Of a stretch of 64,000 nucleotides of DNA, positions 1 through 46,518 are shown one piece after another. The position numbers were made by a program, and so were the translations under genes. Source of the DNA: Eledone cirrhosa (Eukaryota); the NCBI GenBank assembly GCA_964016885.1, contig OZ024741.1, positions 58,900,001 to 58,964,000 on the forward strand, in the 5' to 3' direction. The notes under the pieces were generated by a model, which had not been told where the DNA came from, did not search any database, and saw only the letters and a list, made by a program, of their open reading frames with translations. Position 1 is the stretch's first letter. Each line of letters opens with the position of its first letter.

Positions 1-3000
1 GTGTCTTACCTTACAGGTGTGTATGTATATGACAAGACTAAGACTCTAATGCTACCTGTGTCTTACCTTACAGGTGTGTATGTATATGACAAGACTAAGA
101 CTCTAATGCTACTTGTGTCTTACCTTACAGGTGTGTATGTATATGACAAGACTAAGACTCTAATGCTACCTGTGTCTTACCTTACAGGTGTGTATGTATA
201 TGACAAGACTAAGACTCTAATGCTACCTGTGTCTTACCTTACAGGTGTGTATGTATATGACAAGACTAAGACTCTAATGCTACCTGTGTCTTACCTTACA
301 GGTGTGTATGTATATGACAAGACTAAGACTCTAATGCTACTTGTGTCTTACCTTACAGGTGTGTATGTATATGACAAGACTAAGACTCTAATGCTACCTG
401 TGTCTTACCTTACAGGTGTGTAGGTATATGACAAGACTAAGACTCTAATGCTACCTGTGTCTTACCTTACAGGTGTGTATGTATATGACAAGACTAAGAC
501 TCTAATGCTACCTGTGGCTTACCTTACAGGTGTGTATGTATATGACAAGACTAAGACTCTAATGCTACCTGTGTCTTACCTTACAGGTGTGTATGTATAT
601 GACAAGACTATGTCTCTAATGCTACCTGTGTCTTACCTTACAGGTGTGTATGTATATGACAAGACTGTGACTCTAATACTACCTGTGTCTTACCTTACAG
701 GTGTGTATGTATATGACAAGACTGTGACTCTAATGCTACCTGTGTCTTACCTTACAGGTGTGTATGTATATGACAAGACTAAGACTCTAATGCTACCTGT
801 GTCTTACCTTACAGGTGTGTATGTATATGACAAGACTAAGACTCTAATGCTACTTGTGTCTTACCTTACAGGTGTGTATGTATATGACAAGACTAAGACT
901 CTAATGCGACCTGTGTCTTACCTTACAGGTGTGTATGTATATGACAAGACTATGTCTCTAATGCTACCTGTGTCTTACCTTACAGGTGTGTATGTATATG
1001 ACAAGACTAAGTCTCTAATACTACCTGTGTCTTACCTTACAGGTGTGTATGTATATGACAAGACTGTGACTCTAATGCTACCTGTGTCTTACCTTACAGG
1101 TGTGTATGTATATGACAAGACTAAGACTCTAATGCTACCTGTGTCTTACCTTACAGGTGTGTATGTATATGACAAGACTAAGACTCTAATGCTACTTGTG
1201 TCTTACCTTACAGGTGTGTATGTATATGACAAGACTAAGACTCTAATGCTACCTGTGTCTTACCTTACAGGTGTGTATGTATATGACAAGACTATGTCTC
1301 TAATGCTACCTGTGTCTTACCTTACAGGTGTGTATGTATATGACAAGACTAAGTCTCTAATACTACCTGTGTCTTACCTTACAGGTGTGTATGTATATGA
1401 CAAGACTAAGACTCTAATGCTACCTGTGTCTTACCTTACAGGTGTGTATGTATATGACAAGACTAAGACTCTAATGCTACCTGTGTCTTACCTTACAGGT
1501 GTGTATGTATATGACAAGACTAAGACTCTAATGCTACCTGTGTCTTACCTTACAGGTGTGTATGTATATGAAAAGACTAAGACTCTAATGCTACCTGTGT
1601 CTTACCTTACAGGTGTGTATGTATATGACAAGACTATGTCTCTAATGCTACCTGTGTCTTACCTTACAGGTGTGTATATATATGACAAGACTAAGACTCT
1701 AATGCTACCTGTGTCTTACCTTACAGGTGTGTATGTATATGACAAGACTATGTCTCTAATGCTACCTGTGTCTTACCTTACAGGTGTGTATGTATATGAC
1801 AAGACTAAGTCTCTAATACTACCTGTGTCTTACCTTACAGGTGTGTATGTATATGACAAGACTAAGACTCTAATGCTACCTGTGTCTTACCTTACAGGTG
1901 TGTATGTATATGACAAGACTAAGACTCTAATGCTACCTGTGTCTTACCTTACAGGTGTGTATGTATATGACAAGACTATGTCTCTAATGCTACCTGTGTC
2001 TTACCTTACAGGTGTGTATATATATGACAAGACTAAGACTCTAATGCTACCTGTGTCTTACCTTACAGGTGTGTATGTATATGACAAGACTATGTCTCTA
2101 ATGCTACCTGTGTCTTACCTTACAGGTGTGTATGTATATGACAAGACTAAGTCTCTAATACTACCTGTGTCTTACCTTACAGGTGTGTATGTATATGACA
2201 AGACTAAGACTCTAATGCTACCTGTGTCTTACCTTACAGGTGTGTATGTATATGACAAGACTAAGACTCTAATGCTACCTGTGTCTTACCTTACAGGTGT
2301 GTATGTATATGACAAGACTAAGACTCTAATGCTACCTGTGTCTTACCTTACAGGTGTGTATGTATATGACAAGACTAAGACTCTAATGCTACCTGTGTCT
2401 TACCTTACAGGTGTGTATGTATATGACAAGACTAAGACTCTAATGCTACCTGTGTCTTACCTTACAGGTGTGTATATATATGACAAGACTAAGACTCTAA
2501 TGCTACCTGTGTCTTACCTTACAGGTGTGTATGTATATGACAAGACTAAGACTCTAATGCTACCTGTGTCTTACCTTACAGGTGTGTAGGTATATGACAA
2601 GACTAAGACTCTAATGCTACCTGTGTCTTACCTTACAGGTGTGTAGGTATATGACAAGACTAAGTCTCTAATGCTACCTGTGTCTTACCTTACAGGTGTG
2701 TATGTATATGACAAGACTAAGACTCTAATGCTACCTGTGTCTTACCTTACAGGTGTGTATGTATATGACAAGACTAAGACTCTAATGCTACTTGTGTCTT
2801 ACCTTACAGGTGTGTATGTATATGACAAGACTATGTCTCTAATGCTACCTGTGTCTTACCTTACAGGTGTGTATGTATATGACAAGACTAAGACTCTAAT
2901 GCTACCTGTGTCTTACCTTACAGGTGTGTATGTATATGACAAGACTAAGTCTCTAATGCTACCTGTGTCTTACCTTACAGGTGTGTATGTATATGACAAG

Positions 3001-6000
3001 ACTAAGACTCTAATGCTACCTGTGTCTTACCTTACAGGTCTGTATGTATATGACAAGACTAAGTCTCTAATGCTACCTGTGTCTTACCTTACAGGTGTGT
3101 ATGTATATGACAAGACTAAGACTCTAATGCTCTCTGTGTCTTATCTTACAGGTGTGTATGTATATGACAAGACTAAGACTCTAATGCTACCTGTGTCTTA
3201 CCTTACAGGTGTGTATGTATATGACAAGACTAAGACTCTAATGCTACCTGTGTCTTACCTTACAGGTGTGTATGTATATGACAAGACTAAGACTCTAATG
3301 CTACCTGTGTCTTACCTTACAGGTGTGTATGTATATGACAAGACTAAGACTCTAATGCTACCTGTGTCTTACCTTACAGGTGTGTATGTATATGACAACA
3401 CTAAGACTCTAATGCTACCTGTGTCTTACCTTACAGGTGTGTATGTATATGACAAGACTAAGACTCTAATGCTACCTGTGTCTTACCTTACAGGTGTGTA
3501 TGTATATGACAAGACTAAGACTCTAATGCTACTTGTGTCTTACCTTACAGGTGTGTATGTATATGACAAGACTAAGACTCTAATGCTACCTGTGTCTTAC
3601 CTTACAGGTGTGTATGTATATGACAAGACTATGTCTCTAATGCTACCTGTGTCTTACCTTACAGGTGTGTATGTATATGACAAGACTAAGTCTCTAATAC
3701 TACCTGTGTCTTACCTTACAGGTGTGTATGTATATGACAAGACTAAGACTCTAATGCTACCTGTGTCTTACCTTACAGGTGTGTATGTATATGACAAGAC
3801 TAAGACTCTAATGCTACCTGTGTCTTACCTTACAGGTGTGTATGTATATGACAAGACTAAGACTCTAATGCTACCTGTGTCTTACCTTACAGGTGTGTAT
3901 GTATATGACAAGACTAAGACTCTAATGCTACCTGTGTCTTACCTTACAGGTGTGTATGTATATGACAAGACTAAGACTCTAATGCTACCTGTGTCTTACC
4001 TTACAGGTGTGTATGTATATGACAAGACTAAGACTCTAATGCTACCTGTGTCTTACCTTACAGGTGTGTATGTATATAACAAGACTAAGTCTCTAATGCT
4101 ACCTGTGTCTTACCTTACAGGTGTGTATGTATATGACAAGAGTAAGACTCTAATACTACCTGTGTCTTACCTTACAGGTGTGTATGTATATGACAAGACT
4201 AAGTCTCTAATACTACCTGTGTCTTACCTTACAGGTGTGTAGGTATATGACAAGACTAAGTCTCTAATGCTACCTGTGTCTTACCTTACAGGTGTGTATG
4301 TATATGACAAGACTAAGACTCTAATACTACCTGTGTCTTACCTTACAGGTGTGTATGTATATGACAAGACTGTGACTCTAATACTACCTGTGTCTTACCT
4401 TACAGGTGTGTATGTATATGACAAGACTAAGACTCTAATGCTCTCTGTGTCTTACCTTACAGGTGTGTATGTATATGACAAGACTAAGACTCTAATGCTA
4501 CCTGTGTCTTACCTTACAGGTGTGTATGTATATGACAAGACTAAGACTCTAATGCTCTCTGTGTCTTACCTTACAGGTGTGTATGTATATGACAAGACTA
4601 AGACTCTAATGCTACCTGTGTCTTACCTTACAGGTGTCTATGTATATGACAAGACTAAGACTCTAATGCTACCTGTGTCTTACCTTACAGGTGTCTATGT
4701 ATATGACAAGACTAAGACTCTAATGCTACCTGTGTCTTACCTTACAGGTGTGTATGTATATGACAAGACTAAGACTCTAATGCTCTCTGTGTCTTACCTT
4801 ACAGGTGTGTATGTATATGACAAGACTAAGACTCTAATGCTACCTGTGTCTTACCTTACAGGTGTGTATGTATATGACAAGACTAAGACTCTAATGCTAC
4901 CTGTGTCTTACCTTACAGGTGTGTATGTATATGACAAGACTAAGACTCTAATGCTACCTGTGTCTTACCTTACAGGTGTGTATGTATATGACAAGACTAA
5001 GACTCTAATGCTACCTGTGTCTTACCTTACAGGTGTGTATGTATATGACAACACTAAGACTCTAATGCTACCTGTGTCTTACCTTACAGGTGTGTATGTA
5101 TATGACAACACTAAGACTCTAATGCTACCTGTGTCTTACCTTACAGGTGTGTATGTATATGACAACACTAAGACTCTAATGCTACCTGTGTCTTACCTTA
5201 CAGGTGTGTATGTATATGACAACACTAAGACTCTAATGCTACCTGTGTCTTACCTTACAGGTGTGTATGTATATGACAAGACTAAGACTCTAATGCTACC
5301 TGTGTCTTACCTTACAGGTGTGTATGTATATAACAAGACTAAGTCTCTAATGCTACCTGTGTCTTACCTTACAGGTGTGTATGTATATGACAAGAGTAAG
5401 ACTCTAATACTACCTGTGTCTTACCTTACAGGTGTGTATGTATATGACAAGACTAAGACTCTAATGCTCTCTCTGTCTTACCTTACAGGTGTGTATGTAT
5501 ATGACAAGACTAAGACTCTAATGCTACCTGTGTCTTACCTTACAGGTGTGTATGTATATAACAAGACTAAGTCTCTAATGCTACCTGTGTCTTATTTTAC
5601 AGGTGTGTATGTATATGACAAGACTAAGACTCTAATGCTACCTGTGTCTTACCTTACAGGTGTGTATGTATATGACAAGACTAAGTCTCTAATACTACCT
5701 GTGTCTTACCTTACAGGTGTGTAGGTATATGACAAGACTAAGTCTCTAATGCTACCTGTGTCTTACCTTACAGGTGTGTATGTATATGACAAGACTAAGA
5801 CTCTAATACTACCTGTGTCTTACCTTACAGGTGTGTATGTATATGACAAGACTGTGACTCTAATACTACCTGTGTCTTACCTTACAGGTGTGTATGTATA
5901 TGACAAGACTAAGACTCTAATGCTCTCTGTGTCTTACCTTACATGTGTGTATGTATATGACAAGACTAAGACTCTAATGCTACCTGTGTCTTACCTTACA

Positions 6001-7092
6001 GGTGTGTATGTATATGACAAGACTAAGACTCTAATGCTCTCTGTGTCTTACCTTACAGGTGTGTATGTATATGACAAGACTAAGACTCTAATGCTACCTG
6101 TGTCTTACCTTACAGGTGTCTATGTATATGACAAGACTAAGACTCTAATGCTACCTGTGTCTTACCTTACAGGTGTGTATGTATATGACAAGACTAAGAC
6201 TCTAATGCTACCTGTGTCTTACCTTACAGGTGTGTATGTATATGACAAGACTAAGACTCTAATGCTACCTGTGTCTTACCTTACAGGTGTGTATGTATAT
6301 GACAAGACTAAGACTCTAATGCTACCTGTGTCTTACCTTACAGGTGTGTATGTATATGACAAGACTGTGACTCTAATACTACCTGTGTCTTACCTTACAG
6401 GTGTGTATGTATATGACAAGACTGTGACTCTAATACTACCTGTGTCTTACCTTACAGGTGTGTATGTATATGACAAAACTGTGACTCTAATACTACCTGT
6501 GTCTTACCTTACAGGTGTGTATGTATATGACAAGACTGTGACTCTAATACTACCTGTGTCTTACCTTACAGGTGTGTATGTATATGACAAGACTGTGACT
6601 CTAATACTACCTGTGTCTTACCTTACAGGTGTGTATGTATATGACAAGACTGTGACTCTAATACTACCTGTGTCTTACCTTACAGGTGTGTATGTATATG
6701 ACAAGACTGTGACTCTAATACTACCTGTGTCTTACCTTACAGGTGTGTATGTATATGACAAGACTAAGACTCTAATGCTACCTGTGTCTTACCTTAGAGG
6801 TGTGTATGTATATGACAAGACTAAGACTCTAATGCTACTTGTGTCTTACCTTACAGGTGTGTATGTATATGACAAGACTGTGACTCTAATACTACCTGTG
6901 TCTTACCTTACAGGTGTGTATGTATATGACAAGACTAAGACTCTAATGCTACTTGTGTCTTACCTTACAGGTGTGTATGTATATGACAAGACTAAGACTC
7001 TAATGCTACCTGTGTCTTACCTTACAGGTGTGTATGTATATGACAAGACTAAGACTCTAATGCTACCTGTGTCTTACCTTACAGGTGTGTAT
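1..7092. repeat. 57-bp tandem minisatellite/satellite array (~124 units, continues past the left edge)
   Basis: Unit GTGTCTTACCTTACAGGTGTGTATGTATATGACAAGACTAAGACTCTAATGCTACCT repeats head-to-tail with a few recurrent substitutions and no visible indels. The 19-aa repeat ORFs result from the unit length being a multiple of 3. Confidence 0.99.
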
Positions 7093-7146
7093 GAATGTAT
7101 GTAGTGGGGGATTAGGCTATAATACTATCTGTAGTTTATCCTACAG

Positions 7147-16151: not shown

Positions 16152-16502
16152 ATCATTTCATCATCATCATCATTTCATTTTAGGTCTGCTTTTTCCCTGC
16201 TTGCAAGGGTGGGATGGGAACTGATTCTGGCTTGATTTCTACAGCTGGATGCCCTTCCTAACACACACCTCATTTACAGTGAATGCTGGGTGCTTTTTTT
16301 TCGTGGCACCTCCACGTCCACTTTGCAGTGGAATGATAGAGACTCCAGTCCTTATCATCTCATTTCTACAGCTGAGTAAGCTGGAGCAATGTGAAATAAA
16401 GTGTCTTGCTCAAGGAAACAATACATCACCTGGTCTGAGAATTGAACTCACAACCTTTCGATTGCAAGGCCAATGCTCTAACCACTAAGCCATGTGCCTC
16501 CA
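16152..16502 (-). mobile_element. Full-length tRNA-derived SINE with RTE-derived 3' tail
   Basis: Head TGGAGGCACATGGCTTAGTGGTTAGAGC (A box), GAGTTCAATTC (B box), central TTTCCTTGAGCAAGACACTT resembling a MIR/CORE segment, 3' part shared with the RTE 3' UTR, (GAT)n tail. Confidence 0.9.
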
Positions 16503-19008: not shown

Positions 19009-19126
19009 ATGTGTGTATATATATATATATATATATCTGTGTATATGCTCTCGGGAGCTTCCAACAGTAATGGTTGCATTCTTTAAGGGTATGTCAATAT
19101 TTATTTATAAAACTGCTCTATATTAT

Positions 19127-19189
19127 ATTTTATCTGATGAAAGCACACCATAATTTAACTTGGTGTCCTTGAAATATGTATAATGAAAT
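19127..19189 (+). ncRNA. Type I hammerhead ribozyme motif
   Basis: Stem I ATTTTAT/ATGAAAT (one G.U); core CTGATGA 19134-19140; stem II AAG-c-ACACCA/TGGTGT-c-CTT; GAAA 19171-19174; short near-palindromic stem III ATA-TG-TAT; predicted cleavage triplet AUA. Folded by hand only. Confidence 0.7.
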
Positions 19190-19280
19190 AAATATGGTTT
19201 TATAAATATAGTTTCCATTTGTTATTATATATATACATATATATATATATATATAGATATATATAGTTTTAATATAGATG

Positions 19281-19331
19281 AGATTCTACAGGACTAGAAC
19301 TGTTTCATTCATTAGAAATCATCAGGAATCT
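19281..19331 (-). ncRNA. Type I hammerhead ribozyme motif
   Basis: Minus strand reads AGATTC CTGATGA TTTC TAAT GAAT GAA ACAG TTCTAGTC CTGT A GAATCT: perfect 6-bp stem I, canonical core, 3-bp stem II on a U.U pair, 4-bp stem III, GUA triplet. Confidence 0.8.
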
Positions 19332-22040: not shown

Positions 22041-23216
22041 ATCATCATCATCATCATCATGAACGTTTAACGTCCGTGTTCCACGCTTGCATGGGTTTGG
22101 ACGGGGGTAGTCCCACTTGAGGCAAGAGTGATTGTCTTGCTCGCATAGGACTGTCTGGCAGGTTTTCTACAGTTGGATGCCCTTCCTAACACCAACCACA
22201 TTTACAGTGTGGGTCTGGGAGGTTTTTACCGTGTTGCCTACACGGCCACATTACAGCGTGGACTGTGTGTTTTTTTGTCATGACACCTACACGATCTCAT
22301 TTGTTTCGGCCTCGATGGCGCGGCACCAACATAACTTTACATAGAACGGGGTGGTGTGGATGGGGTGGGGTGGTGGTGGTGGTGGGACGGGGTGTATTTT
22401 GTTAGAGATGACTACTGGCTGGAGTAGATTTTACTATATATTTAGGTAAGGCGGGTCTTCTCTGTTACTGAGTACCGCCAAAGGTCTCGGTCCAGTGACA
22501 TTGTCTTGGAGAGGTGTAAGTGTGTGATGTCGGAGTTTATCAGCTCGTCCCAGGTTTTTCTAGGTCTGCCTATTCCGTGACTACCGTCTATCTTTATTGC
22601 CCTGCACTTTGTTATACAGCTATCGACTTTCATGCGCATCACGTGTCCATACCAACGTAGCCTTCTCTCGAGTAAACAACATCTGATCCCTCTTATCTCT
22701 AATTTTTTCCTTAGTTCGTTTATGCTTTGCCGTTCACGTATATTACTGTTACACATCCAGCGGAGCATGCAAGCTTCGTTCCTCTCTAGTCTGGTTATCC
22801 TCTGCACACAATGCCCAGGTCTCACTGCCATGCAGCATTGCTGTTCGTATGCAGGCATCGTACAACCTGCCTTTCATTTTTAGGGAGAACCCTTTAGCAG
22901 CTAATAGTGGTATAAGCTCTCTGAACTTTTTCCAACCAGTTCTGACTCTAGCTACAGTACTTTCAGAGCACCCTCCCCCACTGCTGATTTTATCGCCCAG
23001 GTAACGGAAGCTGTCCACTATTTCTATAGAACCCTCTGCGCAATTGAAAGAGCTAGTATTTTGTGGGCACTTGCTGCTACTTATTGCACCAGAACACCGG
23101 CCACATGTAAAATCTATGTTCTTAGTTAGCTTACCTGTGATCCCACTACATCTTTTATGCACCCATACTTTGCATTTAGGACATAAAATGGAGTTTCTAC
23201 CTACGCCTTTTCTACA
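22041..23216 (-). mobile_element. 5'-truncated RTE LINE (KTRLT subfamily) with a frameshift near 22795
   Basis: [23 protein letters not shown]...VDSFRYLGD...MLHGSETW...RLRWYGHVMRM; (GAT)n tail; nearly identical to 36534-37730. Confidence 0.95.
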
Positions 23217-23961: not shown

Positions 23962-25297
23962 TTAGCCATCGGGCTTTAACACTGGCTTAAAGTGTTTGAA
24001 AGTTGCAAAGTTCTTGTGCATGCAGTTCGGGCAGTGTTCAGAGAGTTTGTTCAGTAGCGGGCCCTTGGCGAATAAAATTTCGTAGCTCTCTGAAATACAA
24101 AGGTCGCAGCCCTTGTGTCCTCCGTTGTAAGAGCGCGCTTTCTGGAGTATTTTCCAATTAAGCGTGAAGGGGGTGGAGTTCCTTTTGAGGTCCCAAACGT
24201 AGGAGGCGAGTGTTGTCTGATTTGATTTATCCGGTCTTCTGAAGGAGTGGGTATGGGCATACCAACGGGTCTTAAAGTTGTTGGAGGTCATGCCGATGTA
24301 AGTTTTTTTGCAATCCTCGGTGCCTGAGATGACATCGCATTTGTATACGATGTCATTTGTGAGGCATTTGTTTTCAAGTGGGCATGCTTCCTTATTTAGG
24401 CAATTACATAGAGCCCCAGTCCGGGGATTGGTTTCGGAGGTGGTTGGCTTATTTAGTTTAGAATTATGGTTGGCTATATTCCTAGCTAGGTTAGGTGTGG
24501 TGGAGTAAGACAGTCTTATAGTGTTCTTATTAAAGATGGTGTAGTACCTATGTTGTATGGGGAAGTGTAATTTCAGTAAAGTGAAGAAAATCCTAGCTAT
24601 CGGAGTAGATACCTCTCTATTGAAGGGGGGGTTGTACCAGCTAATCTGCCTATGTCTATTCCTCCTCTGCAATCTTGCGGTGGTTTCTAGGTAAGTTATC
24701 TTATCTTTAAATCCGCTACGGGCTAGGGCGTCATTGTAGTAGGAGGCAGATGCATTAAAAATATCTTTGTTTGCGGAGAGGCCAGATATTCTAATAGAGA
24801 CGCTTTTTACTAGGTTATCAGTGATGTTTTGTGGGTGGTTTGAATTAACATTAATATATTTAAGGGACTCGTTAGGTTTGTGGTACGGGTAATAGAGGGA
24901 AGTATCTAGGTCGAGAGTGACATCTAAGAAGTTGGCCCTAGTCATATTAGAATCTATAGTTATACTAAATCCTAGATTAGAGAAGAAAGAGCTTAAGTTT
25001 TTCCGAAACCCATCGGTGGTTCTGGGGCTAACCTTATGCAGGGCGAAGAGGCCGTCGTCTCGGTATAAACCTCCCGTTAGGCCGGTAAAGAGGTTCTTCA
25101 GGTTATGTAGGATGTCCAGGCCCACAAGGTCGCTAATTTCAGCCGAGTCACTCGCCCCCATGCTAACGTCAAATGGGGTCTGAGATTTCTTGTTGATCCA
25201 GTAAGATCCATCGTGGTATAGAAAGGTCTTACGAGCGTGGAGGATAATAACTTGCTCAGCATCGGTAATGGTGGTAAAATTCCTGGCAAAGTACACA
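23962..25297 (-). CDS. 5'-truncated Penelope-like element ORF: RT C-terminal part + Cys linker + GIY-YIG endonuclease, uninterrupted
   Basis: [20 protein letters not shown] (RT catalytic), NFLDVTL, HP, CNC-x5-CPL-x3-C linker, IVYKC...[24 protein letters not shown]. Homology to the second PLE stops near 25297, so the first ~44 codons of the tracked ORF appear unrelated. Confidence 0.92.
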
Positions 25298-25550
25298 CAC
25301 ATACAACTAACCGGCAGGAGACCCAAAGTAAGATGGTTGGGTAACATAAACAGGATATTAGGAAAAACTAGGCAACATTCGTTGAAGTTTGAAAAAACAT
25401 TTATTATACAATAGGGTTTTGAACACATCCATGTTACATAAACCTCAATTAGCTTACATAAAATGAATACTTCTATCTTCTCTCATATTATATATATATA
25501 TATGATACACACACGTGTGTGTGTGTGTGTGTCATATTTATACATATATA

Positions 25551-31636: not shown

Positions 31637-32100
31637 TTTGCATATATATATATAGAAAGATAGATAGAGGGGTGGGGGCAGATGGATAGATAGATATGTA
31701 GCTAAAAAAGCACCTTGTTAAGAAATGCAAAGCAGTGAAGAAATACTCAATATAGTTGCCCGAGGATCAGTAAAAAAAACTCTACCAGCTAATCAAGACC
31801 CAGCTTTGAATATGTAATATTAAAATTTGACACATAATGACATATGTTAAAATTACACATCAACACAAATGTAACCTTGAAAATTACACTTTGAAAAGTT
31901 CACGTGAGCTGAAACTTGTTATTAAAAAAAAAATCAGAGATAACCATGATTCTTTCTGCAAACACCTTAAAACATTTCCATAATTTATTTATGAACTAAT
32001 TGTACGTTTTCATATATATATATATATATATATAAACACTGGTTGCACCTTCAACTTTATATATATATATATATATATATTTATTAAAATAACAGATTAA

Positions 32101-32151
32101 AGTTTAAGCAAAGAATCGCTGCTTTCACCCTTAACGGGATCTTCTGAAACT
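32101..32151 (-). ncRNA. Hammerhead-like motif with variant core in the PLE terminal repeat
   Basis: AGTTT CAGAAGA TCCC GTTAA GGGT GAA AGCA GCGATTCTT TGCT T AAACT: all three stems form, the core has A at position 4, there is a U.U pair at the stem II base, and the triplet is CUU. Confidence 0.65.
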
Positions 32152-33085
32152 AACAAAGTCAATCTGTAAATGCAGAAGTGGATATTTCAAAAAACGTAGC
32201 AACCGGAGGAAGACAGGAAGACGATACTTTGGTTTGTGGAAACATTCGCTGGCAAAGAACGGGAAAAAACGAATAAGATACGTCATTAATAGGAGCGGTG
32301 AAAAACAATTACGCGCAAAGACGGAACCACGTTTATGGTATAAAAGAGGTCGTAGACTAATGTTCTCTTAGGTGGTTCATAGAGACGTTCTCTGGCGATG
32401 AACGAAAAAAACGAAGATAATACGTCATATGTGGAGCGTGGAGAACAATAGCACGCAAAGACAAAACCACGTAAATGGTATAGCAGAGGTCGTAGACTAA
32501 AATTCTAACTAGGAGACCGAATGAATCTCCGCTACAGAGTTAAGAACAAAGTAAATAAATACAATACAGAAGTAATAGAAATAAATAAATACGTACACGC
32601 AAACAAATACGTACATACACAAGCATACGCAAAACACTTACCATAGGTATACAAAACCACGCACATATAAATATGTGTGTGTGTGTGTATGCGTGTATAC
32701 AAATAAATAAATAATTATATAAACGTATATAAATAAATAAATACGTATATAACAAGCGCACACACATACCTACATGTAAATACATAAAGTTCGGAGACGT
32801 AAGTCAACCAAAACATGAAGTACGCATATACACACACCCTACATACGTACGAACCAGCATACTCACACAGACGCAAAACTCCCGTATACACATAGCCAAA
32901 CCATATGTACCAGAATAAAAAAATTATACGCCATAACATAAACAATCAAATATACGTACGAGAAGGTATACGTACCTTCACGAAACATACCGGTAATATA
33001 TACTTACCTATGCAAATAAGTAATGGTATAAACAAAACATACTTAGCTCCCACATCAAGACGTAAATATCCACGTATAGATCGTA

Positions 33086-35180
33086 CTATCCGTTAGGGTA
33101 TAACGTGGGGCTGTAATACAGGAAAGTTTTGTGCAATTTATGTTTACAAGCCGAAATTGCCTCAGATTTTTTGTTTAAGATGTGGTCTGTGGCGTAGAGT
33201 ATTTCCAGGGCCTCAGCGGTCACATGGTCTTTTATTTCCGTTATACGATCTAGCCCTAGCTAGGATGTCCCAGTGTAACTTATATTGGGTGTGGTTGTCT
33301 TTTAGACTCCAGATATAAGCTGAAAGTGACGTCATGTTCCTTCTTAGAGGGTAACGAAAAGAATGGGTATGCGTGTAAAGACGCTGCTTGAATCTATTGG
33401 CGGTTAACCCTATGTAGGCCCTACGGGACGTGGGTGTTACAACCTTACATTTGTAGACAATGTTACTAGAGAGGCATTTCCCGGATAGGGGGCAATCAAC
33501 CCGATTCCTACAATTACAGTTAGTACTAACTACAGTGTTGCACGTGTTCCTACGGCTAGGTAGTTTAGCTAAATTTGAAGCTGTGATGTTATGTGCAAGG
33601 TTAGGAGTCGTAGAGTAAGAAATTTTAATAGTATTTCTATTAAAATTTTACTATATTTATGTGTAGGGGGAAAATGCTTCGTAATAAGGGAAAGAAAGAT
33701 CTTAGCTAATGGTGTGGCCACCTCCATATTATATGGTGGGTTATACCAACAAATGCGACAGGATCTATTTCTTCTAGGTCTATTATCGTACTCTGTATAT
33801 GCTACCTTATTGACAAATCCACTTCGAGCAAGAGCTTCATTGTAATAAGTGGAATGGTCGTTGAAAATACGCTCGTTGGTGGAAAGACGGGAAAGCCTCA
33901 ACGAAACGTTTCTTACCAGGTTCTTGGTTATGCTGGCAGGATGGTTGGAATGCTTACTTATGTAATTAAGCGTATCATTCGGCTTTCTATACGGGTAATA
34001 CAACCCATTCAATAAATTGAGGGTAACGTCAAGGTAATTAACGACCGAGAGATTGGCCTCAATCTGTATAGAGAGGGTGAAGCCTTTAAAGAAGGCTGTG
34101 AGTTCTTTTCTGAACCTGTCGCAAGCACGAGGTCCGCACTTAGTCATGGTCAAAAGACCATCGTCACGGTACAAACCCCCGCCCGCGTTGGGGAATTCGT
34201 CCTTGATAGAGAAAAGAAGGAAAAGGCCGATAAGATCAGTAACCTCCGTAAAATCACTGGCGCCCATACTCACGTCGAATGGGGTACTATTGGATTTTTT
34301 AATCCAAATAGAGTCACCGACTTTCGGGCATTGAGGATGACATCAACTTCGAAATCCTTAACCACTGTGAGTGTTTTAGCGAAATTGATAGCTCTAAGGA
34401 GAAGTGGTAAAGTGATGGAGGAGTAGTAATTGTTGATGTCGAATTGGATAAAACGGCAATGTTCCTTGTTATATATGCCGTTGAACCAATCAATCACCGC
34501 AAAAGAATTGTTCCACAGTGCGAGAGGGGCCAAACTTCTAATTTCAGGTATAATTCTATCAAGAATCGTTTTACTAAGTCTACCTAAATCGAACTTCGTA
34601 AGGTTAATAAGCCGAATAGAGGAGTTGTTCGGAAAATTGGATTTGTGATCCTTCAGGGTAAAGTGGGGAGAAATAGGGTCCAGAGGTTCGGTCCTGTCCA
34701 GGATGTTGAGATCAGATGTGATTTTAAACCAAGCATCGTTGATTTCATTGATGACGCACCGATTAGTTTTACGGTAATCCTTAGTTACAGCATTATGTAG
34801 TAGTTGATGGTAAGTACTGCGCGCCACTGGATATAGGTTGCCAGTTTTGTCGGAATGGACGTGCACGGCGTTAGAATCCTTAATAGAACGAATTCTATTC
34901 TTCAGGTCTTGCTGGAAGCAATTGCTCCTATTCCGAAATTTGATACTCCGAATGAGTTCCAAGACATCATTTTCTAAGGGTAGCAATGCTGGGTTACACG
35001 GGGGTTATTATAGGTTTTAAATCCAAATTTATCCTGTTTGTTGTCTGCTTTTCGCGGGTTATCGAAATAAAAGGCACGCCAACGCAACCTTTTAATGAAC
35101 GCGTCTGTTTTCTGTATCAGGAGTTTTAGGTATGTTTTCCTGCTTGGAACGGGTATGTTCTTTGTAGAAATATTCAGATG
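33086..35180 (-). pseudogene. Frameshifted PLE ORF (N-terminal domain, RT, GIY-YIG)
   Basis: LNISTKNIPVP...[69 protein letters not shown]...YIGLT..FKQR, LNKKSE..CKH, stop at 33086-33088. Several frameshifts, a deletion over the CxxC, and no in-frame ATG seen. Confidence 0.92.
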
Positions 35181-35364
35181 TTGTTTCTGTATGATGAATA
35201 TAAGTCAGTAGAAGATCCCGTTAAGGGTGAAAGCAGCGATTCTTTGCTTAAACTTTAATCTGTTATTTTAATAAATATTTGCTCTACGGTTCTTATATAT
35301 TTGATATATATTTATCCTTATCGAGCCCTCTTTGGATTTTAGTCTTCAAATTTATTATTATTAC

Positions 35365-35410
<46 letters not shown>

Positions 35411-35594: not shown

Positions 35595-35822
35595 CTATAA
35601 GATGTAGGATGCTCATACACAAAAAATAGCTCATAAAAATTGGGCAAAGACCCCCAGCAAGATTTTCCTGTGTCTGAATTTCTACATTTTTTATAAATTT
35701 ATTTCCTCAGCGCTTAGTAAATTTGAAAATTTGAGCTTCACACATTACGTTCATATATATATATATATATTAGAAAGTGAGGTTTTTTTTACAAAATGTA
35801 AAATAACCGAGTGAAAGTATAA

Positions 35823-36048
35823 AGAAAAAAAGATGAAATCGAAAATGCAACTGGAGTCTTATTTAAAAAAAAAAATATATATTTATTTGGTTTCTTTACC
35901 GGTTTCACATGTAAGAAAAACCACAGACCCTCCATCTCAACTCTACTTTTGAAAACCAGAAGAACTGCGAAACCGGTAAAGGAACCAAATAAATATATAT
36001 ATTTTTTTTTAAATAAGACTCCAGTTGCATTTTCGATTTCATCTTTTT

Positions 36049-36052
<4 letters not shown>
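35823..36052. repeat. Inverted repeat, ~84-bp arms and ~62-bp spacer, between (TA)n runs
   Basis: 35823-35906 is nearly the exact reverse complement of 35969-36052. Confidence 0.95.
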
Positions 36053-36084
<32 letters not shown>

Positions 36085-36533: not shown

Positions 36534-38024
36534 ATCATCATCATCATCATCAACGTTTAACGTCCGTGTTCCACGCTTGCATGGGTTTGGACGGGGGTAG
36601 TCCCACTTGAGGCAAGAGTGATTGTCTTGCTCGCATAGGACTGTCTGGCAGGTTTTCTACAGTTGGATGCCCTTCCTAACACCAACCACATTTACAGTGT
36701 GGGTCTGGGAGGTTTTTACCGTGTTGCCTACACGGCCACATTACAGCGTGGACTGTGTGTTTTTTTGTCGTGACACCTACACGATCTCATTTGTTTCGGC
36801 CTACACGATCTCATTTGTTTCGGCCTGGATGGCGCGGCACCAACATAACTTTACATAGAACGGGGTGGTGTGGATGGGGTGGGGGTGGGGGTGGTGGGAC
36901 GGGGTGTATTTTGTTAGAGATGCCTACTGGCTGGAGTAGGTTTTACTATATATATTTAGGTAAGGCGGGTCTTCTCTGTTACTGAGTACCGCCAAAGGTC
37001 TCGGTCCAGTGACATTGTCTTGGAGAGGTGTAAGTGTGTGATGTCGGAGTTTATCAGCTCGTCCCAGGTTTTTCTAGGTCTGCCTATTCCGTGACTACCG
37101 TCTATCTTTATTGCCCTGCACTTTGTTATACAGCTATCGACTTTCATGCACATCACGTGTCCATACCAACGTAGCCTTCTCTCGAGTAAACAACATCTGA
37201 TCCCTCTTATCTCTAATTTTTCCTTAGTTTGTTTCTGCTTTGCCGTTCACGTATATTACTGTTACACATCCAGCGGAGCATGCAAGCTTCGTTCCTCTCT
37301 AGTCTGCGTATATCCTCTGCACACAATGCCCAGGTCTCACTGCCATGCAACATTGCTGTTCGTATGCAGGCATCGTACAACCTGCCTTTCATTTTTAGGG
37401 AAAACCCTTTAGCAGCTAATAGTGGTATAAGCTCTCTGAACTTTTTCCAACCAGTTCTGACTCTAGCTACAGTACTTTCAGAGCACCCTCCCCCACTGCT
37501 GATTTTATCGCCCAGGTAACGGAAGCTGTCCACTATTTCTATAGAACCCTCTGCGCAATTGAAAGAGCTAGTATTTTGTGGGCACTTGCTGCTACTTATT
37601 GCACCAGAACACCGGCCACATGTAAAATCTATGTTCTTAGTTAGCTTACCTGTGATCCCACTACATCTTTTATGCACTCATACTTTGCATTTAGGACATA
37701 AAATGGAGTTTCTACCTACGCCTTTCCTACACACCGAGCACCACCATTTCCCAGAAGGGACCGCCGCCTTGTTTTCTTTCCTACAAACTAGAACTTTGGT
37801 CTTAGCCAGGTTAATTTTAAGTCCTTTTGACTCTAGGCCGTGCTTCCATGTTTGGAATTTCTTCTCTAGCTCGGCCATTGATTCCGCTATGAGTGTCAGG
37901 TCGTCTGCGTATAGGAGTTCCCATGGGCAGCCTGTCTTGAACTCCTCTGTTATAGCCTGAAGGGCAATAATAAATAGTAGGGGGCTGAGAACAGAGCCCT
38001 GATGGACGCCAACTTTTACGCTAA
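36534..38024 (-). mobile_element. 5'-truncated RTE LINE (KTRLT subfamily), disrupted
   Basis: GVHQGSVLSPLLF, LYADDL, PHD-like Cys motif with a Trp>stop at 37678, frameshift near 37220, 24-bp tandem duplication at 36777-36824, (GAT)n tail. Confidence 0.95.
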
Positions 38025-41290: not shown

Positions 41291-43094
41291 TCATCATCAT
41301 CATCATCATCACCGTTTTACGTCTGTTCTTCCATGCTAGCATGGGTTAGACGGCTTGTCCTGTTGTGGGCAGTGTCTGGTCGGCTGACCATGCCTTGCTC
41401 ATACAGGAACTGATTTTGGCTTGATTTCTACAGCTGGATGCCCTTCCTAACACCAACCTTATTTACAGTGAGTGCTGGGTGCTTTTTTCCGTGGTGCCTA
41501 CATGTCCACTTTACAGTGTGGGCTTTTTTGTTGTGGCACCTCCACAACCACTTTGCAGTGGGAGAGTGTGGGGGCATATTGTCTATATGCTTCAGCTTGT
41601 ACCCATGGGAGGTCGGGTACTCTGTATTACTGCGTGACGCCAGAGGTCACGGTCGTGTGTCATCGCCTTTGAGAGGTGTAATTGAGTATGGTCGGCTTTT
41701 ATCACCTCATCCCAGGTCTTCTTGGGTCTCCCCACTCCGCGGTTTCCATTGACTTCTAGTGCTCTGCACCTTTTTATGCAGCTGTCATCCTTCATACGCA
41801 TCACATGTCCATACCAATGCAACCGCCTCTCCTGCACACAGCATTTGATTCCTCTTATGCTCAGTCTCTCTCTCAATTCATTTATGCTTTGTCGTTCGCG
41901 TATATTACTATTACACATCCATCGGAGCATGCAGGCTTTGTTTCTTTGTAATCTACGTAAGTCTTCCACCTTCAGCGCCCAGGTCTCACTACCATGTAAT
42001 ATTGCTGTTCGGATACACGCATCATACAGTCTGCCTTTCATTTTGAGGGAGAAGCCTTTTGCAGCTAGCAGTGGCAGTAGTTCCCTGAACTTCTTCCATC
42101 CCGTTCCTACCCTAGTTATTGTACTTTCTGAACACCCACCTCCGCTGCTAATTCGGTCACCTAGGTAGCAGAAGCTGTCTACTGTTTCTACAGAGCCCTC
42201 CCAGAGATTGGTGGTACTTGTTTCCTGTGGCTGTTTGCTGCTTGCTGTCCCAGCACAGCTGTTGCATGTGAAGCCTACATTCTTAATTAAGCTTCCTGAA
42301 ATCCCACTACATCTCTTGTGTACCCATTGTTTGCATTTGGGGCAGAGAATGGAGTTCCTACCTACACCTTTCCTACATACTGAGCAAGGCCATTTCCCTG
42401 AGGGGATCTGGGTTCTGTTTTCTCGTCTACTTACAAGGACCTTAGTCTTTGTCATGTTGACTTTGAGACCCTTTCTTTCTAGTCTCTGCTTCCAGGTTTG
42501 GAATTTCTTCTCTAGTTCTACCATAGATTCAGCTATAAGTGCGAGGTCATCAGCATACAGGAGTTCCCATGGGCATCTGGTCTTAAACTCCTCCATTATT
42601 GCCTGCAGGACTATGATGAACAGGAGAGGGCTAAGAACAGAGCCCTGGTGGACACCAACCTGTACGCTAAATTACTCGCTATACTCATTGCTAATCCTAA
42701 CTTTGCTGACTGCTCCCCTATACATGGCTTGTACAGCTTTCACAAGCCATTCATCTACTCCTAGTTTTCTAAGAGCCCACCAGATTACAGCACGTGGAAC
42801 TCTGTCAAAGGCTTTCTCGAGATCGACGAATGCCAGGTAGAGTGGCTTACTTTTAGCTAGGTACTTTTCCTGTAACTGCCTCACAAGGAAGAGGGCATCA
42901 GTGGTGCCTCTTCCTGGTACAAACCCAAATTGCATCTCATCTAGTTTCACCCGGTCCCTAATCAACTGTGCTATAACTCTTTCTGTTACTTTCATGACCT
43001 GGTCCATCAGCTTTATACCTCTATAGTTTCCTCTATCTAGTGCATCACCTTTACCTTTGTAGCAGTTGACAATGATGCTACTGCACCAATCTTT
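41291..43094 (-). mobile_element. 5'-truncated RTE LINE, inverted close relative of 45019-46816, with one in-frame stop (GAA>TAA at 42672)
   Basis: ORFs 42672-43007 and 41592-42596 are in the same frame and nearly identical to the C-terminal part of ORF 44035-46518; (GAT)n tail at 41291. Confidence 0.96.
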
Positions 43095-43132: not shown

Positions 43133-43521
43133 TGGAGGCACATGGCTTAATGGTTAGAGCATTGGGCTTGCAATCGAAAGGTTGTGAGTTCAATTCTCAG
43201 ACCGGGTGATGTGTTGTTTCCTTGAGCAAGACACTTTATTTCACATTGCTCCAGTTTACTCAGCTGTAGAAATGAGATGATAGGACTGGGGTCCCTATCA
43301 TTCCACTGCAAAGTGGTCGTGGAGGTGCCACGGCAAAAAAAGCACCTAGCCCACACTGTAAAGTGGACGTGTAGGTGCCATGGAAAAAAAGCACCCAGCA
43401 CTCACTGTAAATGAGGTTGGTGTTAGGAAGGGCATCCAGCTGTAGAAATCAAGCCAGAATCAGTTCCCATCCCACCCTTGCAAGCAGGGAAAAGTGGACA
43501 TAAAATGATGATGATGATGAT
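43133..43521 (+). mobile_element. Full-length tRNA-derived SINE with RTE tail (one extra UTR repeat unit)
   Basis: A box TGGCTTAATGG, B box GTTCAATTC, core, RTE UTR repeats and (GAT)n. Confidence 0.92.
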
Positions 43522-43943: not shown

Positions 43944-44075
43944 CTCTGGTTTTGAATAGGTAAACTGTATCTCTGCGTGTCTAAAGAAGTGACTAAAAGG
44001 GTTGTTGTTAAAAAGGGCATCTGGCTATTAGACATTGCCTCAACCTCTGTTGGCATGGAAACATCAACATAAAAA

Positions 44076-44131
<56 letters not shown>

Positions 44132-44151
44132 TCATCATCATCTATATATAT

Positions 44152-46518
44152 AAAGCCTTCCCTAGTGAGGAATGTACATCCCAACATAGCTTAGTTGTCA
44201 GCGACCTCACGGTCAGAACTAGACGAGCCCTGAAACAGAGGCCAACCTGGAGAAGAAAGATCTGGAAGCTGAAAGTCCCCTCAACCAGTAACAGATTTAA
44301 AGATATTTTACTCAACGCCTACGACAGTAAAGAAGAACAGATAGAGACATTTAACGTAGAAGAGAACTGGGAGTTCCTAAAAAATAACTTACTAGAGGCG
44401 ACGGATGAGGTTTGTGGCTGGAGTAAGACCTCAAGCAGGAGGAGAGTGACTTGGTGGTGGAACAATAAGGTAGATGAAGCAGTCAAGGCCAAGAGACAGG
44501 CATGGAAAGAATGGAAGAACGGGGGGAGCAGGGTACATTACATAGAGACCAAGAGGGAAGCTAGGCGACAAGTATACTTAGCTAGGAGGGAAGCAGAGGA
44601 TAGAAAATTCAAGCATGTTTTACAACGTGAGGACCAGAAACAGGAGGTATTCAAGATTGCGAGGCAGTGTGTCAGAGATAGTTGTGATGTCATTGGAGAG
44701 AAGTGTATCCGGAATGATAAAGGTGAGCTTGCCCTCACAAGTGCTGAGAAGAAAGATGCATGGAAGAGTCATTATGATAGATTACTAAATGAGGAGAATG
44801 CATGGGAAGAAGAGACCCTACCCCACGTAGACCCTATAGAGGGACCAGCAGTACAAGTCAGCGGCAGCGTAGTAAGTAAGGCAATCAGAGATATGAAGAT
44901 AGGGAAGGCAACCGGTCCATCAGGTATAGCTGCCGAGATGCTGAAGGCATCTGGGTCTGTAGGTCACACTATAACCACACGTATTGTTAACCAGGTAATA
45001 CTAGAGGGGGCCATACCAAAAGATTGGTGCAGTAGCATCATTGTCAACTGCTACAAAGGTAAAGGCGATGCACTAGATAGAGGAAACTATAGAGGTATAA
45101 AGTTGATGGACCAGGTCATGAAAGTAACAGAAAGAGTTATAGCACAGCTGATTAGGGACCGGGTGAATATAGACGAGATGCAATTTGGGTTTGTACCAGG
45201 GAAAGGCACCACTGATGCGCTCTTCCTTGTGAGGCAATTACAGGAAAAGTACCTAGCTAAAAGTAAGCCACTCTACTTGGCATTTGTCGACCTTGAGAAA
45301 GCCTTTGACAGAGTTCCACGTGCAGTAATCTGGTGGGCTCTTAGAAAACTAGGAGTAGATGAATGGCTTGTGAAAGCGGTACAAGCCATGTATAGGGGAG
45401 CAGTCAGCAAAGTTAGGATTGGCAATGAGTATAGCGAGGAATTTAGCGTACAGGTTGGGGTCCACCAGGGCTCTGTTCTTAGCCCTCTCCTGTTCATCAT
45501 AGTCCTGCAGGCAATAACGGAGGAGTTTAAGACCGGATGCCCATGGGAACTCCTGTATGCTGATGACCTCGCACTCATAGCTGAATCTATGGTAGAACTA
45601 GAGAATAAATTCCAAACCTGGAAGCAGGGACTAGAGAGAAAGGGCCTCAAAGTCAACATGACAAAGACTAAGGTCCTTATAAGTAGACGAGAAAACAGAA
45701 CCCAGATCCCCTCAGGGAAATGGCCTTGCTCAGTATGTAGGAAAGGTGTAGGTAGGAACTCCATTCTTTGCCCCAAATGCAAACAATGGGTACACAAGAG
45801 ATGTAGCGGGATCTCAGGAAGCTTAATTAAGAATGTAGGATTCACATGCAGCAGCTGTGCTGAAACAGCAAGCAAACAGCCACAGGAAACAAGTACCACC
45901 AATCTCTGGGAGGGCCCTGTAGAAACAGTAGACAGCTTCTGCTACCTAGGTGACCGAATTAGCAACGGAGGTGGGTGCTCAGAAAGTACAATAACTAGGG
46001 TAAGAACGGGATGGAAGAAGTTTAGGGAACTACTACCACTGCTAGCTGCAAAAGGCTTCTCCCTCAGAATGAAAGGCAGACTGTATGATGCGTGTATCCG
46101 AACAGCGATGTTGCATGGTAGTGAGACCTGGGCGCTGAAGGTGGAAGACTTACGTAGATTAGAGAGAAACGAAGCCTGCATGCTCCGATGGATGTGTAAC
46201 AGTAATATACGTGAACGACAAAGCATAAATGAATTGCGAGAGAGACTGAGCATAAGAGGAATCAAATGCTGCGTGCAGGAGAGGCGGTTACGCTGGTATG
46301 GACATGTGATGCGTATGAAGGATGACAGCTGCATAAAAAGGTGCAGAGCACTAGAAGTTGATGGAAACCGCGGAGTGGGGAGACCCAAGATGACTTGGGA
46401 TGAGGTGATAAAAGCCGACCTTACCCAACTACACCTCTCAAAGTCAATGACACACGACCGTGACTTCTGGCGTCACGCAGTAATACAGGGTACCCGACCT
46501 CCCATGGGTACATGCTGA
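44152..46518 (+). CDS. RTE ORF: APE C-terminal remnant + reverse transcriptase with an internal PHD-type Zn finger, open for ~788 codons
   Basis: SQHSLVVSD (APE end), WWWN, KATGPSGI, NYRGIKL, QFGFVPG, FVDLEKAFDRV, GVHQGSVLSPLLF, YADD (45556-45567), FCYLG, RLRWYGHVMRM, GRP..TW. The native start is missing; the first ~39 tracked codons are flank/microsatellite. Confidence 0.93.
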   Translation, partial: KAFPSEECTSQHSLVVSDLTVRTRRALKQRPTWRRKIWKLKVPSTSNRFKDILLNAYDSKEEQIETFNVEENWEFLKNNLLEATDEVCGWSKTSSRRRVTWWWNNKVDEAVKAKRQAWKEWKNGGSRVHYIETKREARRQVYLARREAEDRKFKHVLQREDQKQEVFKIARQCVRDSCDVIGEKCIRNDKGELALTSAEKKDAWKSHYDRLLNEENAWEEETLPHVDPIEGPAVQVSGSVVSKAIRDMKIGKATGPSGIAAEMLKASGSVGHTITTRIVNQVILEGAIPKDWCSSIIVNCYKGKGDALDRGNYRGIKLMDQVMKVTERVIAQLIRDRVNIDEMQFGFVPGKGTTDALFLVRQLQEKYLAKSKPLYLAFVDLEKAFDRVPRAVIWWALRKLGVDEWLVKAVQAMYRGAVSKVRIGNEYSEEFSVQVGVHQGSVLSPLLFIIVLQAITEEFKTGCPWELLYADDLALIAESMVELENKFQTWKQGLERKGLKVNMTKTKVLISRRENRTQIPSGKWPCSVCRKGVGRNSILCPKCKQWVHKRCSGISGSLIKNVGFTCSSCAETASKQPQETSTTNLWEGPVETVDSFCYLGDRISNGGGCSESTITRVRTGWKKFRELLPLLAAKGFSLRMKGRLYDACIRTAMLHGSETWALKVEDLRRLERNEACMLRWMCNSNIRERQSINELRERLSIRGIKCCVQERRLRWYGHVMRMKDDSCIKRCRALEVDGNRGVGRPKMTWDEVIKADLTQLHLSKSMTHDRDFWRHAVIQGTRPPMGTC

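What the first reader, a model, noticed from the sequence alone, without database searches (positions are those of the whole stretch)
32101..32151. Variant hammerhead (CAGAAGA core, U.U at stem II base) in a PLE terminal repeat
Seen: full three-stem topology on the element's sense strand, with U4 replaced by A. The U.U pair closing stem II also appears in the unrelated HHR at 19281-19331, and CAGAAGA..GAAACCGGTA recurs at 35957. Established: canonical cores are CUGANGA/GAAA, usually with a purine-pyrimidine 10.1-11.1 pair, so strict searches would miss this. Inference: a possible lineage-specific HHR variant class in these PLEs. This is my best candidate for something undescribed.
Basis: partly seen in the sequence, partly recalled or inferred. 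Interest (0 to 1): 0.75.

Follow-up and report, generated by a model that had tools for sequence, protein, structure and literature searches.

The report
Hammerhead with fixed A4 core
A jumping gene with over 21,000 copies in this animal genome ends in a hammerhead-shaped RNA that carries, in nearly all copies and in its much older relatives, an A where known hammerheads have a U; it likely still folds and cuts itself slowly, but cutting is untested.

Summary
The motif is real: a type I hammerhead fold on the minus strand (32151-32101, stem I extending to 32167/32092) at the 3' end of a Hydra-clade Penelope-like element. A4 is the family state, not a mutation of this copy: 21,645 exact genome matches with A against 240 with C, G or T. 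It is old: subfamilies whose upstream 3' UTR is about 42% identical keep A4, the stems and the other core bases, and differ only at N7, loops and bulges (0 of 39 against 9 of 20 positions). No compensatory pair change was seen within the A4 lineage. Two supporting claims fail. The U·U pair is already published (Perreault 2011; 14 of 26 Hydra rows in Craig 2021 File S2). The CAGAAGA at 35957 is not a core: it lies in stem II and loop II of another family's hammerhead, best read as the known U3-A8 variant. No second A4 family was seen. Cleavage is untested; mutagenesis data predict low activity. Verdict: new variant of a known kind, confined to one lineage. This scan already reported the same A4 family twice on other pieces of this genome.

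The parts
32101..32151 (-). Type I hammerhead fold. Stem I 32151-32147 with 32105-32101; core C3-A9 32146-32140 (A4 = 32145); U10.1 32139; stem II 32138-32136 with 32130-32128; loop II 32135-32131; U11.1 32127; GAAA 32126-32123; stem III 32122-32119 with 32111-32108; U16.1 32107; U17 32106. Predicted scissile bond 32106/32105.
   Evidence: Sequence
32092..32167 (-). Extended motif: distal stem I (32167-32159 with 32100-32092, 9 bp) and a 7-nt pyrimidine-rich bulge (32158-32152), the likely tertiary partner of loop II
   Evidence: pairing; published loop motif; the contact itself is inferred
32077..33085 (-). 3' UTR / pLTR of the element; ends 29 nt past the predicted cut site, on a (TA)n tract; holds a two-copy subrepeat (32230-32366 and 32373-32506, 77%)
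33086..35192 (-). Broken RT + C-terminal GIY-YIG ORF of Hydra type (about 700 codons; start codon reads ATA in this copy; frameshifts and stops)
   Evidence: homologues mostly 600-750 aa
35210..35367 (+). Inverted, 5'-truncated terminal piece: runs from A4 of the hammerhead through the 3' end and an extra tail of about 88 nt, then (TA)n
   Evidence: 69 nt, 100% with 32145-32077; L030 match 35210-35367
19281..19331 (-). Comparator, not the same family: canonical U4 hammerhead with U·U, of the second Hydra family (ORF 23962-25482, 52-54% amino-acid identity to the A4 family)
   Evidence: L117 and L190 hold both ORF and motif
35946..35982 (+). Comparator: motif of another repeat family, best read as a type I hammerhead with a U3-A8 core (35949-35955), canonical U4, G10.1-C11.1 in most copies and a palindromic stem III; this copy has C at 10.1
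   Evidence: 19 of 23 tabulated copies have G10.1-C11.1; 21 of 23 have the UUGAAAA core

Best explanation
This is the terminal hammerhead-shaped RNA of a Hydra-clade Penelope-like retrotransposon whose lineage has long carried A at core position 4; it likely still folds as an extended type I hammerhead and likely cleaves slowly, perhaps only with the element's protein bound (untested). Shown: in tandem copies the predicted cut lies 159 nt upstream of the ORF start with no AUG between, and both insertion 3' ends lie downstream of it (29 and about 117 nt). Inferred: a cut would free the 5' end of the coding RNA from a read-through transcript, while reverse transcription through the 3' copy needs uncut or re-ligated RNA, so a slow ribozyme is tolerated or favoured.
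For: A4 in 21,645 matches against 240 C/G/T; 100 of the first 100 when core positions 4-10.1 are left free. Older subfamilies (copies 83-85% identical to their consensus; upstream UTR about 42% identical to the young consensus, motif module 86-87%) keep A4: 67 of 70 fetched copies and 28 of 30 with a core-free pattern. Young Y1 against old OB consensus, positions fixed by the search pattern removed: 0 of 39 paired or core positions differ, against 9 of 20 unpaired (counted by hand; Fisher p 1.3e-5). N7, the free core position, varies. Loop II starts with a purine in 62 of 70 and ends in A in 62 of 70 old copies, the RNnA motif of active hammerheads. A natural U4C viroid variant is slow in vitro yet works in vivo, and U·U is the best-tolerated 10.1-11.1 mismatch (Perreault 2011). 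The PAc element's hammerhead cleaves only with its protein (Frangieh 2024). Geometry.
Against: [quoted passage not shown] Three weakening features coincide here: A4, U·U and U17 (U17 being the slowest NUH is recalled, not from a call). No compensatory pair change among the A4 consensus sequences, so the conservation could reflect sequence recognition by a protein. Hammerhead catalysis is dispensable for PAc insertion in vitro. The subfamily contrast rests on few independent lineages, and old-copy consensus sequences came from 9 copies each. No direct sign of cleavage was obtained.
Confidence: 0.5

Rival explanations
1. The ribozyme is catalytically dead. The fold is kept as a binding or positioning handle for the element's RT/EN protein next to the reverse-transcription start sites.
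For: CUGA-turn mutants have low activity. Catalytic mutants insert normally in vitro and unprocessed RNA is the main template. Naiads reach high copy numbers without canonical hammerheads. About 25 nt upstream of the module are also conserved between subfamilies, and no pair covaries.
Against: All catalytic and core bases other than N7 are unchanged between subfamilies, and N7 is the position catalysis leaves free. Loop II keeps the RNnA motif. A pure protein handle need not keep this pattern, though a folded core might.
Confidence: 0.33
2. A4 is fully compensated by its context (U·U closing pair, short stem II, bulge-loop contact), giving a fast ribozyme in which A4 is as good as or better than U4.
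For: A4 has persisted through several amplification waves with no reversion subfamily seen. Tertiary contacts are proposed to offset core variants.
Against: No rescue of CUGA-turn mutants by any second mutation. No excess of insertions starting at the cut site (weak test). No independent A4 family seen.
Confidence: 0.12
3. A neutral relic: A4 killed the ribozyme recently and the motif is simply hitch-hiking in a young family.
For: The young family is 98.5% identical to its consensus; folding energy is unremarkable.
Against: A4 is shared with much older subfamilies whose UTR has turned over while the motif has not.
Confidence: 0.05

Closest known systems
Hydra-clade PLE hammerheads (Craig et al. 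2021, PMC8557442; section 11, passages, supplement parts 1-2 and a supplement search seen)
   Same: Type I, 3'-terminal, short stem II; U·U at 10.1-11.1 in 14 of 26 Hydra rows of File S2; U17 in 10 of 26; (TA)n target.
   Different: All 26 rows have U4. They were found with CUGANGA-type descriptors, so A4 could not have been reported. This family's motif is absent from the supplement. It has a longer stem III than those rows and a 9-bp distal stem I.
Natural hammerhead core variants (Perreault et al. 2011, PMC3088659; passages and main-text parts 2-3 seen; Naghdi et al. 2020, PMC7151607, passages)
   Same: Single core departures (U3-A8, A6C, U4C, U15.1-A16.1, insertions) and the U10.1·U11.1 mismatch occur in nature, mostly with reduced activity.
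   Different: No U4A in the text I saw (Fig. 5 and Figs S6-S7 were not viewable). Those variants are rare single finds; this one is fixed in over 21,000 copies and several subfamilies.
Minimal PLE hammerheads (Cervera and De la Peña 2014, PMC4209133; parts 1-2 of 4 read)
   Same: pLTR location, low in vitro activity, proposed processing of precursor RNA; a U3-A8 variant with about 1,300 hits in Schistosoma, the reading that fits 35957.
   Different: Those lack a stable helix III, keep G10.1-C11.1 and act as dimers; this motif has a 5-bp stem III and could fold as a monomer.
PAc Poseidon element of Anolis (Frangieh et al. 2024, PMC11167929; passages and main-text part 2 read)
   Same: Two insertion ends defining a tail downstream of the hammerhead; hammerhead near the ORF start.
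   Different: Other PLE clade; its cut site lies inside the ORF, here 159 nt upstream of it; no A4 is mentioned in what I read.

Membership tests
Type I hammerhead ribozyme | Three helices around the core in type I order | tested here: met
   The fold is 2.1 kcal/mol above the MFE and proximal stem I has probability 0.08, but a canonical U4 family scores 0.02, so the prediction does not discriminate.
Type I hammerhead ribozyme | Core C3 U4 G5 A6 N7 G8 A9 | tested here: not met
   A at position 4 in 21,645 of 21,885 matches; the other positions fit. Filed therefore as a hammerhead-like variant, not as a canonical member.
Type I hammerhead ribozyme | G12 A13 A14, A15.1-U16.1, H17 | tested here: met
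   kept in old copies found with a core-free pattern (26-30 of 30 at G12-A15.1)
Type I hammerhead ribozyme | Purine-pyrimidine pair 10.1-11.1 | tested here: not met
   U·U; a known natural exception
Type I hammerhead ribozyme | Loop II RNnA and a U-containing stem I loop for the tertiary contact | tested here: met
   Sequence pattern only. The contact itself is not shown.
Type I hammerhead ribozyme | Covarying stems | tested here: inconclusive
   Stems are invariant across four A4 consensus sequences; changes fall in loops, bulges and N7
Type I hammerhead ribozyme | Site-specific self-cleavage | not testable with these tools
   Needs a bench assay or RNA end-mapping
Hydra-clade PLE | Single RT ORF with C-terminal GIY-YIG endonuclease, element near 3 kb | tested here: met
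   AYIG motif C-terminal; ORF about 2.1 kb; body 3.1 kb, slightly above the 'generally <3 kb'
Hydra-clade PLE | RWK and DKT motifs | tested here: met
   RWR (conservative change) and DKT in the window translation
Hydra-clade PLE | CxCX5C linker; CxxC and CxH flanking the E and N residues; no CCHH | tested here: met
   L002 translation, read by eye
Hydra-clade PLE | (TA)n target, pLTR, inverted 5' piece, tail | tested here: met
   (of 124 distinct 3' ends, 63 run into TA, 39 into the tail, 22 other)
Hydra-clade PLE | RT phylogeny groups with Hydra | not tested
   Reference proteins were seen only in a supplement and compared by eye

The most novel reading that the evidence does not exclude
A4 hammerheads are a functional natural variant that this PLE lineage has kept for a long time, with catalysis tuned or switched on by the element's protein, so that the coding RNA is processed while most templates stay uncut for reverse transcription. 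CUGANGA-based searches would then be blind to a working ribozyme present in tens of thousands of copies.
Probability: 0.3. Interest if true: 0.7.

Novelty: new variant of a known kind. Interest (0 to 1): 0.48.

Why it matters
Why PLEs keep hammerheads is open: they may process precursors, be dispensable, or ride along. Here one lineage has amplified repeatedly with a change in the U-turn that mutagenesis says should cripple cleavage, yet it kept every other catalytic base, beside a Hydra family with canonical U4 in the same genome. One cleavage assay is informative either way. If it cuts, the hammerhead consensus and search descriptors need widening. If it does not, this is a hammerhead fold conserved for a non-catalytic job. 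Interest is limited by the single lineage, the single base, the already published U·U, and the lack of any activity data.

Tried and rejected
1) 'This copy is mutated': rejected. 2) A U4 sister family with the same stem II: 759 matches, but 27 of 30 fetched are fold-back junctions where the reverse complement of the A4 core joins the forward copy; the other 3 look like point mutants or a truncated copy. 3) A second A4 family: 5,489 matches against 1,690 control; the first 100, read by eye, were this lineage, scattered mutants of U4 families or apparent chance hits; the rest were not seen. 4) Cleavage footprint in genomic 5' truncations: 0 of 30 A4 copies break at the cut (nearest 2 nt away) against 2 of 31 at or next to it in the U4 control (30 loci fetched from each list of 100). 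The control shows no clear peak, so the test is uninformative. 5) An A4-U11.1 alternative fold as the attenuator: natural U4-mutant copies and the U4 control family fold the hammerhead no better, so it is not used as evidence. 6) Expression: no RNA holder listed. 7) Rfam: no hammerhead hit on 32060-32200, none among the 150 of 182 rows shown for the window. Pfam found nothing in the three Hydra ORF pieces. 8) Metagenome contigs: 0 matches. 9) The Y2 upstream consensus (5 copies, several truncated) is unreliable; its identity figures are not used. 10) Run X11 laid no contig. 11) Lünse 2017, Nelson and Uhlenbeck 2008 and Hammann 2012 could not be opened, so nothing is taken from them.

Full report
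Observation. The minus strand of 32101-32151 gives a complete type I hammerhead layout with A at position 4, a U·U at the base of a 3-bp stem II, a 5-bp stem III and U17. A 9-bp distal stem I lies beyond a 7-nt bulge. Folding energy is not better than shuffles, and the predicted probability of proximal stem I is low (0.08). The canonical U4 family in the same genome scores 0.02, so this says little either way. Rfam does not see the motif.

Host element. The motif ends a 3.1-kb element on the minus strand (35212 to 32077) inserted in (TA)n, with an inverted 5' piece and tail at 35210-35367. Its broken ORF and a cleaner fragment (L002) show RWR, DKT, a CxCX5C linker, a C-terminal GIY-YIG motif, CxxC and CxH, and no CCHH. 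These are the Hydra-clade features listed by Craig et al. 2021; no tree with reference proteins was built. In five loci (L030, L040, L045, L052, L055) the tail runs on into the ORF start. In L030 the AUG is 159 nt past the predicted cut with no AUG between. Insertions end 29 nt or about 117 nt past the cut, so any copy holding the whole motif was templated by uncut or re-ligated RNA (inference).

A4 is the family state. An 18-mer with A4 has 21,645 exact matches in G000, and the same 18-mer with C, G or T has 240; the first 30 of those are 13 G, 12 T and 5 C, as expected for decay after insertion. With core positions left free there are 18,473 matches, and the first 100 all carry A4. The 759 apparent U4 copies are mostly fold-back junctions (27 of 30). 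Contigs of seven other coded organisms cover the motif, and no letter difference was listed within 32101-32151. Nineteen rows were not shown, contigs drop rare variants, and one more run laid nothing.

A4 is old and the fold looks constrained. A pattern for older relatives gave 328 matches (control 0); 67 of 70 fetched have A4, while N7 is A 43, U 21, G 5, C 1. A pattern fixing only the flanks gave 141 matches, with A4 in 28 of the 30 fetched. Of 157 collected copies, the 65 with at least 300 nt of alignable upstream sequence entered the tree. Old copies are 83-85% identical to their consensus. Against the young consensus the motif module is 86-87% identical and the upstream UTR about 42%. Between the young Y1 and old OB consensus, after removing positions fixed by the search pattern, 0 of 39 paired or core positions differ against 9 of 20 unpaired (hand count; p 1.3e-5). 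Loop II keeps a first purine and a last A in 62 of 70 copies each (some first A's are probably CpG decay), matching the RNnA motif of Dufour et al. (passages). There is no compensatory pair change, so the evidence is constraint, not covariation, and it rests on few lineages.

What is not new. U10.1·U11.1 is described as natural and as the best-tolerated mismatch (Perreault 2011). It fills 14 of 26 Hydra rows in Craig's File S2, where U17 occurs in 10 of 26 and U4 in all 26. This genome has 106,753 matches to a U4/U·U pattern (control 1,474), from several families with different stems. The 19281-19331 motif belongs to a second Hydra family, 52-54% identical in protein, with U4; A4 is therefore probably derived in one lineage. 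At 35957 the CAGAAGA letters are stem II and loop II of another repeat. Its copies read best as a U3-A8 hammerhead with a palindromic stem III and only 3-4 bp of stem I, a variant already in print; that reading is by eye and untested.

Mechanism. Best supported (0.5): a slow, possibly protein-assisted ribozyme. For: all other catalytic bases and the tertiary-contact pattern are kept; a U4C viroid variant works in vivo; the PAc hammerhead needs its protein. Against: CUGA-turn mutants are weak and unrescued in Roberts 2023 (passages; per-mutant values not seen), and catalysis is dispensable for PAc insertion. Rivals: dead but conserved protein handle (0.33), fully compensated fast variant (0.12), neutral relic (0.05). 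Genomic truncation points gave no usable signal.

Novelty. Eight full-text searches, judged from listings and the passages cited, showed no natural A4 hammerhead, and the family motif is absent from Craig's supplement. Lünse 2017, the paper most likely to list PLE hammerhead variants, could not be read, nor could figures or Repbase, so prior mention is not excluded. This scan's notes e1-10304421 and e1-10330111 report the same family. I had reached the A4 consensus and Hydra placement before seeing them; they lean to a weak or dead ribozyme, while the old-subfamily conservation found here moves me somewhat towards retained activity. Verdict: new variant of a known kind, interest 0.48.

Noticed in passing
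L121-L149; window 35210: Inversion (fold-back) junctions recur at hammerhead core positions 3-5 (27 of 30 fetched from 759 matches, a set selected by the pattern), and the window's inverted piece also ends at A4. May reflect a micro-palindrome or an RT pause at the folded core.
   Followed up: partly
window 35818-36057; L228-L247: Abundant short (TA)n-inserted repeat with an apparent U3-A8 hammerhead; many copies share one 5' boundary about 50 nt upstream of the core. Hydra-like ORF pieces lie nearby in L235 and L237, link unproven.
   Followed up: partly
window 19126-19200 (+): A third type I hammerhead with canonical U4, 8-bp stem I and a long stem II; similar motifs in L057 and L101.
   Followed up: no
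G000 genome-wide; L091-L120: About 100,000 U4/U·U hammerhead-core matches from several families, some in tandem arrays of 310- and 490-nt units.
   Followed up: partly
window 23962-25482 and 19281-19331 (-): Second Hydra family whose ORF and 3' hammerhead are separated by LINE fragments and microsatellite.
   Followed up: partly
window 44032-46518 (+), inverted copy 41570-43094: LINE ORF with RT and a PHD finger forming a large inverted repeat; fragments also at 22044-23216 and 36534-37731.
   Followed up: no
window 1-7100: 57-nt tandem satellite, about 123 copies, with long open frames.
   Followed up: no
window 43143-43200 and 16435-16492: tRNA-like Rfam hits inside a dispersed repeat, probably SINE heads.
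   Followed up: no
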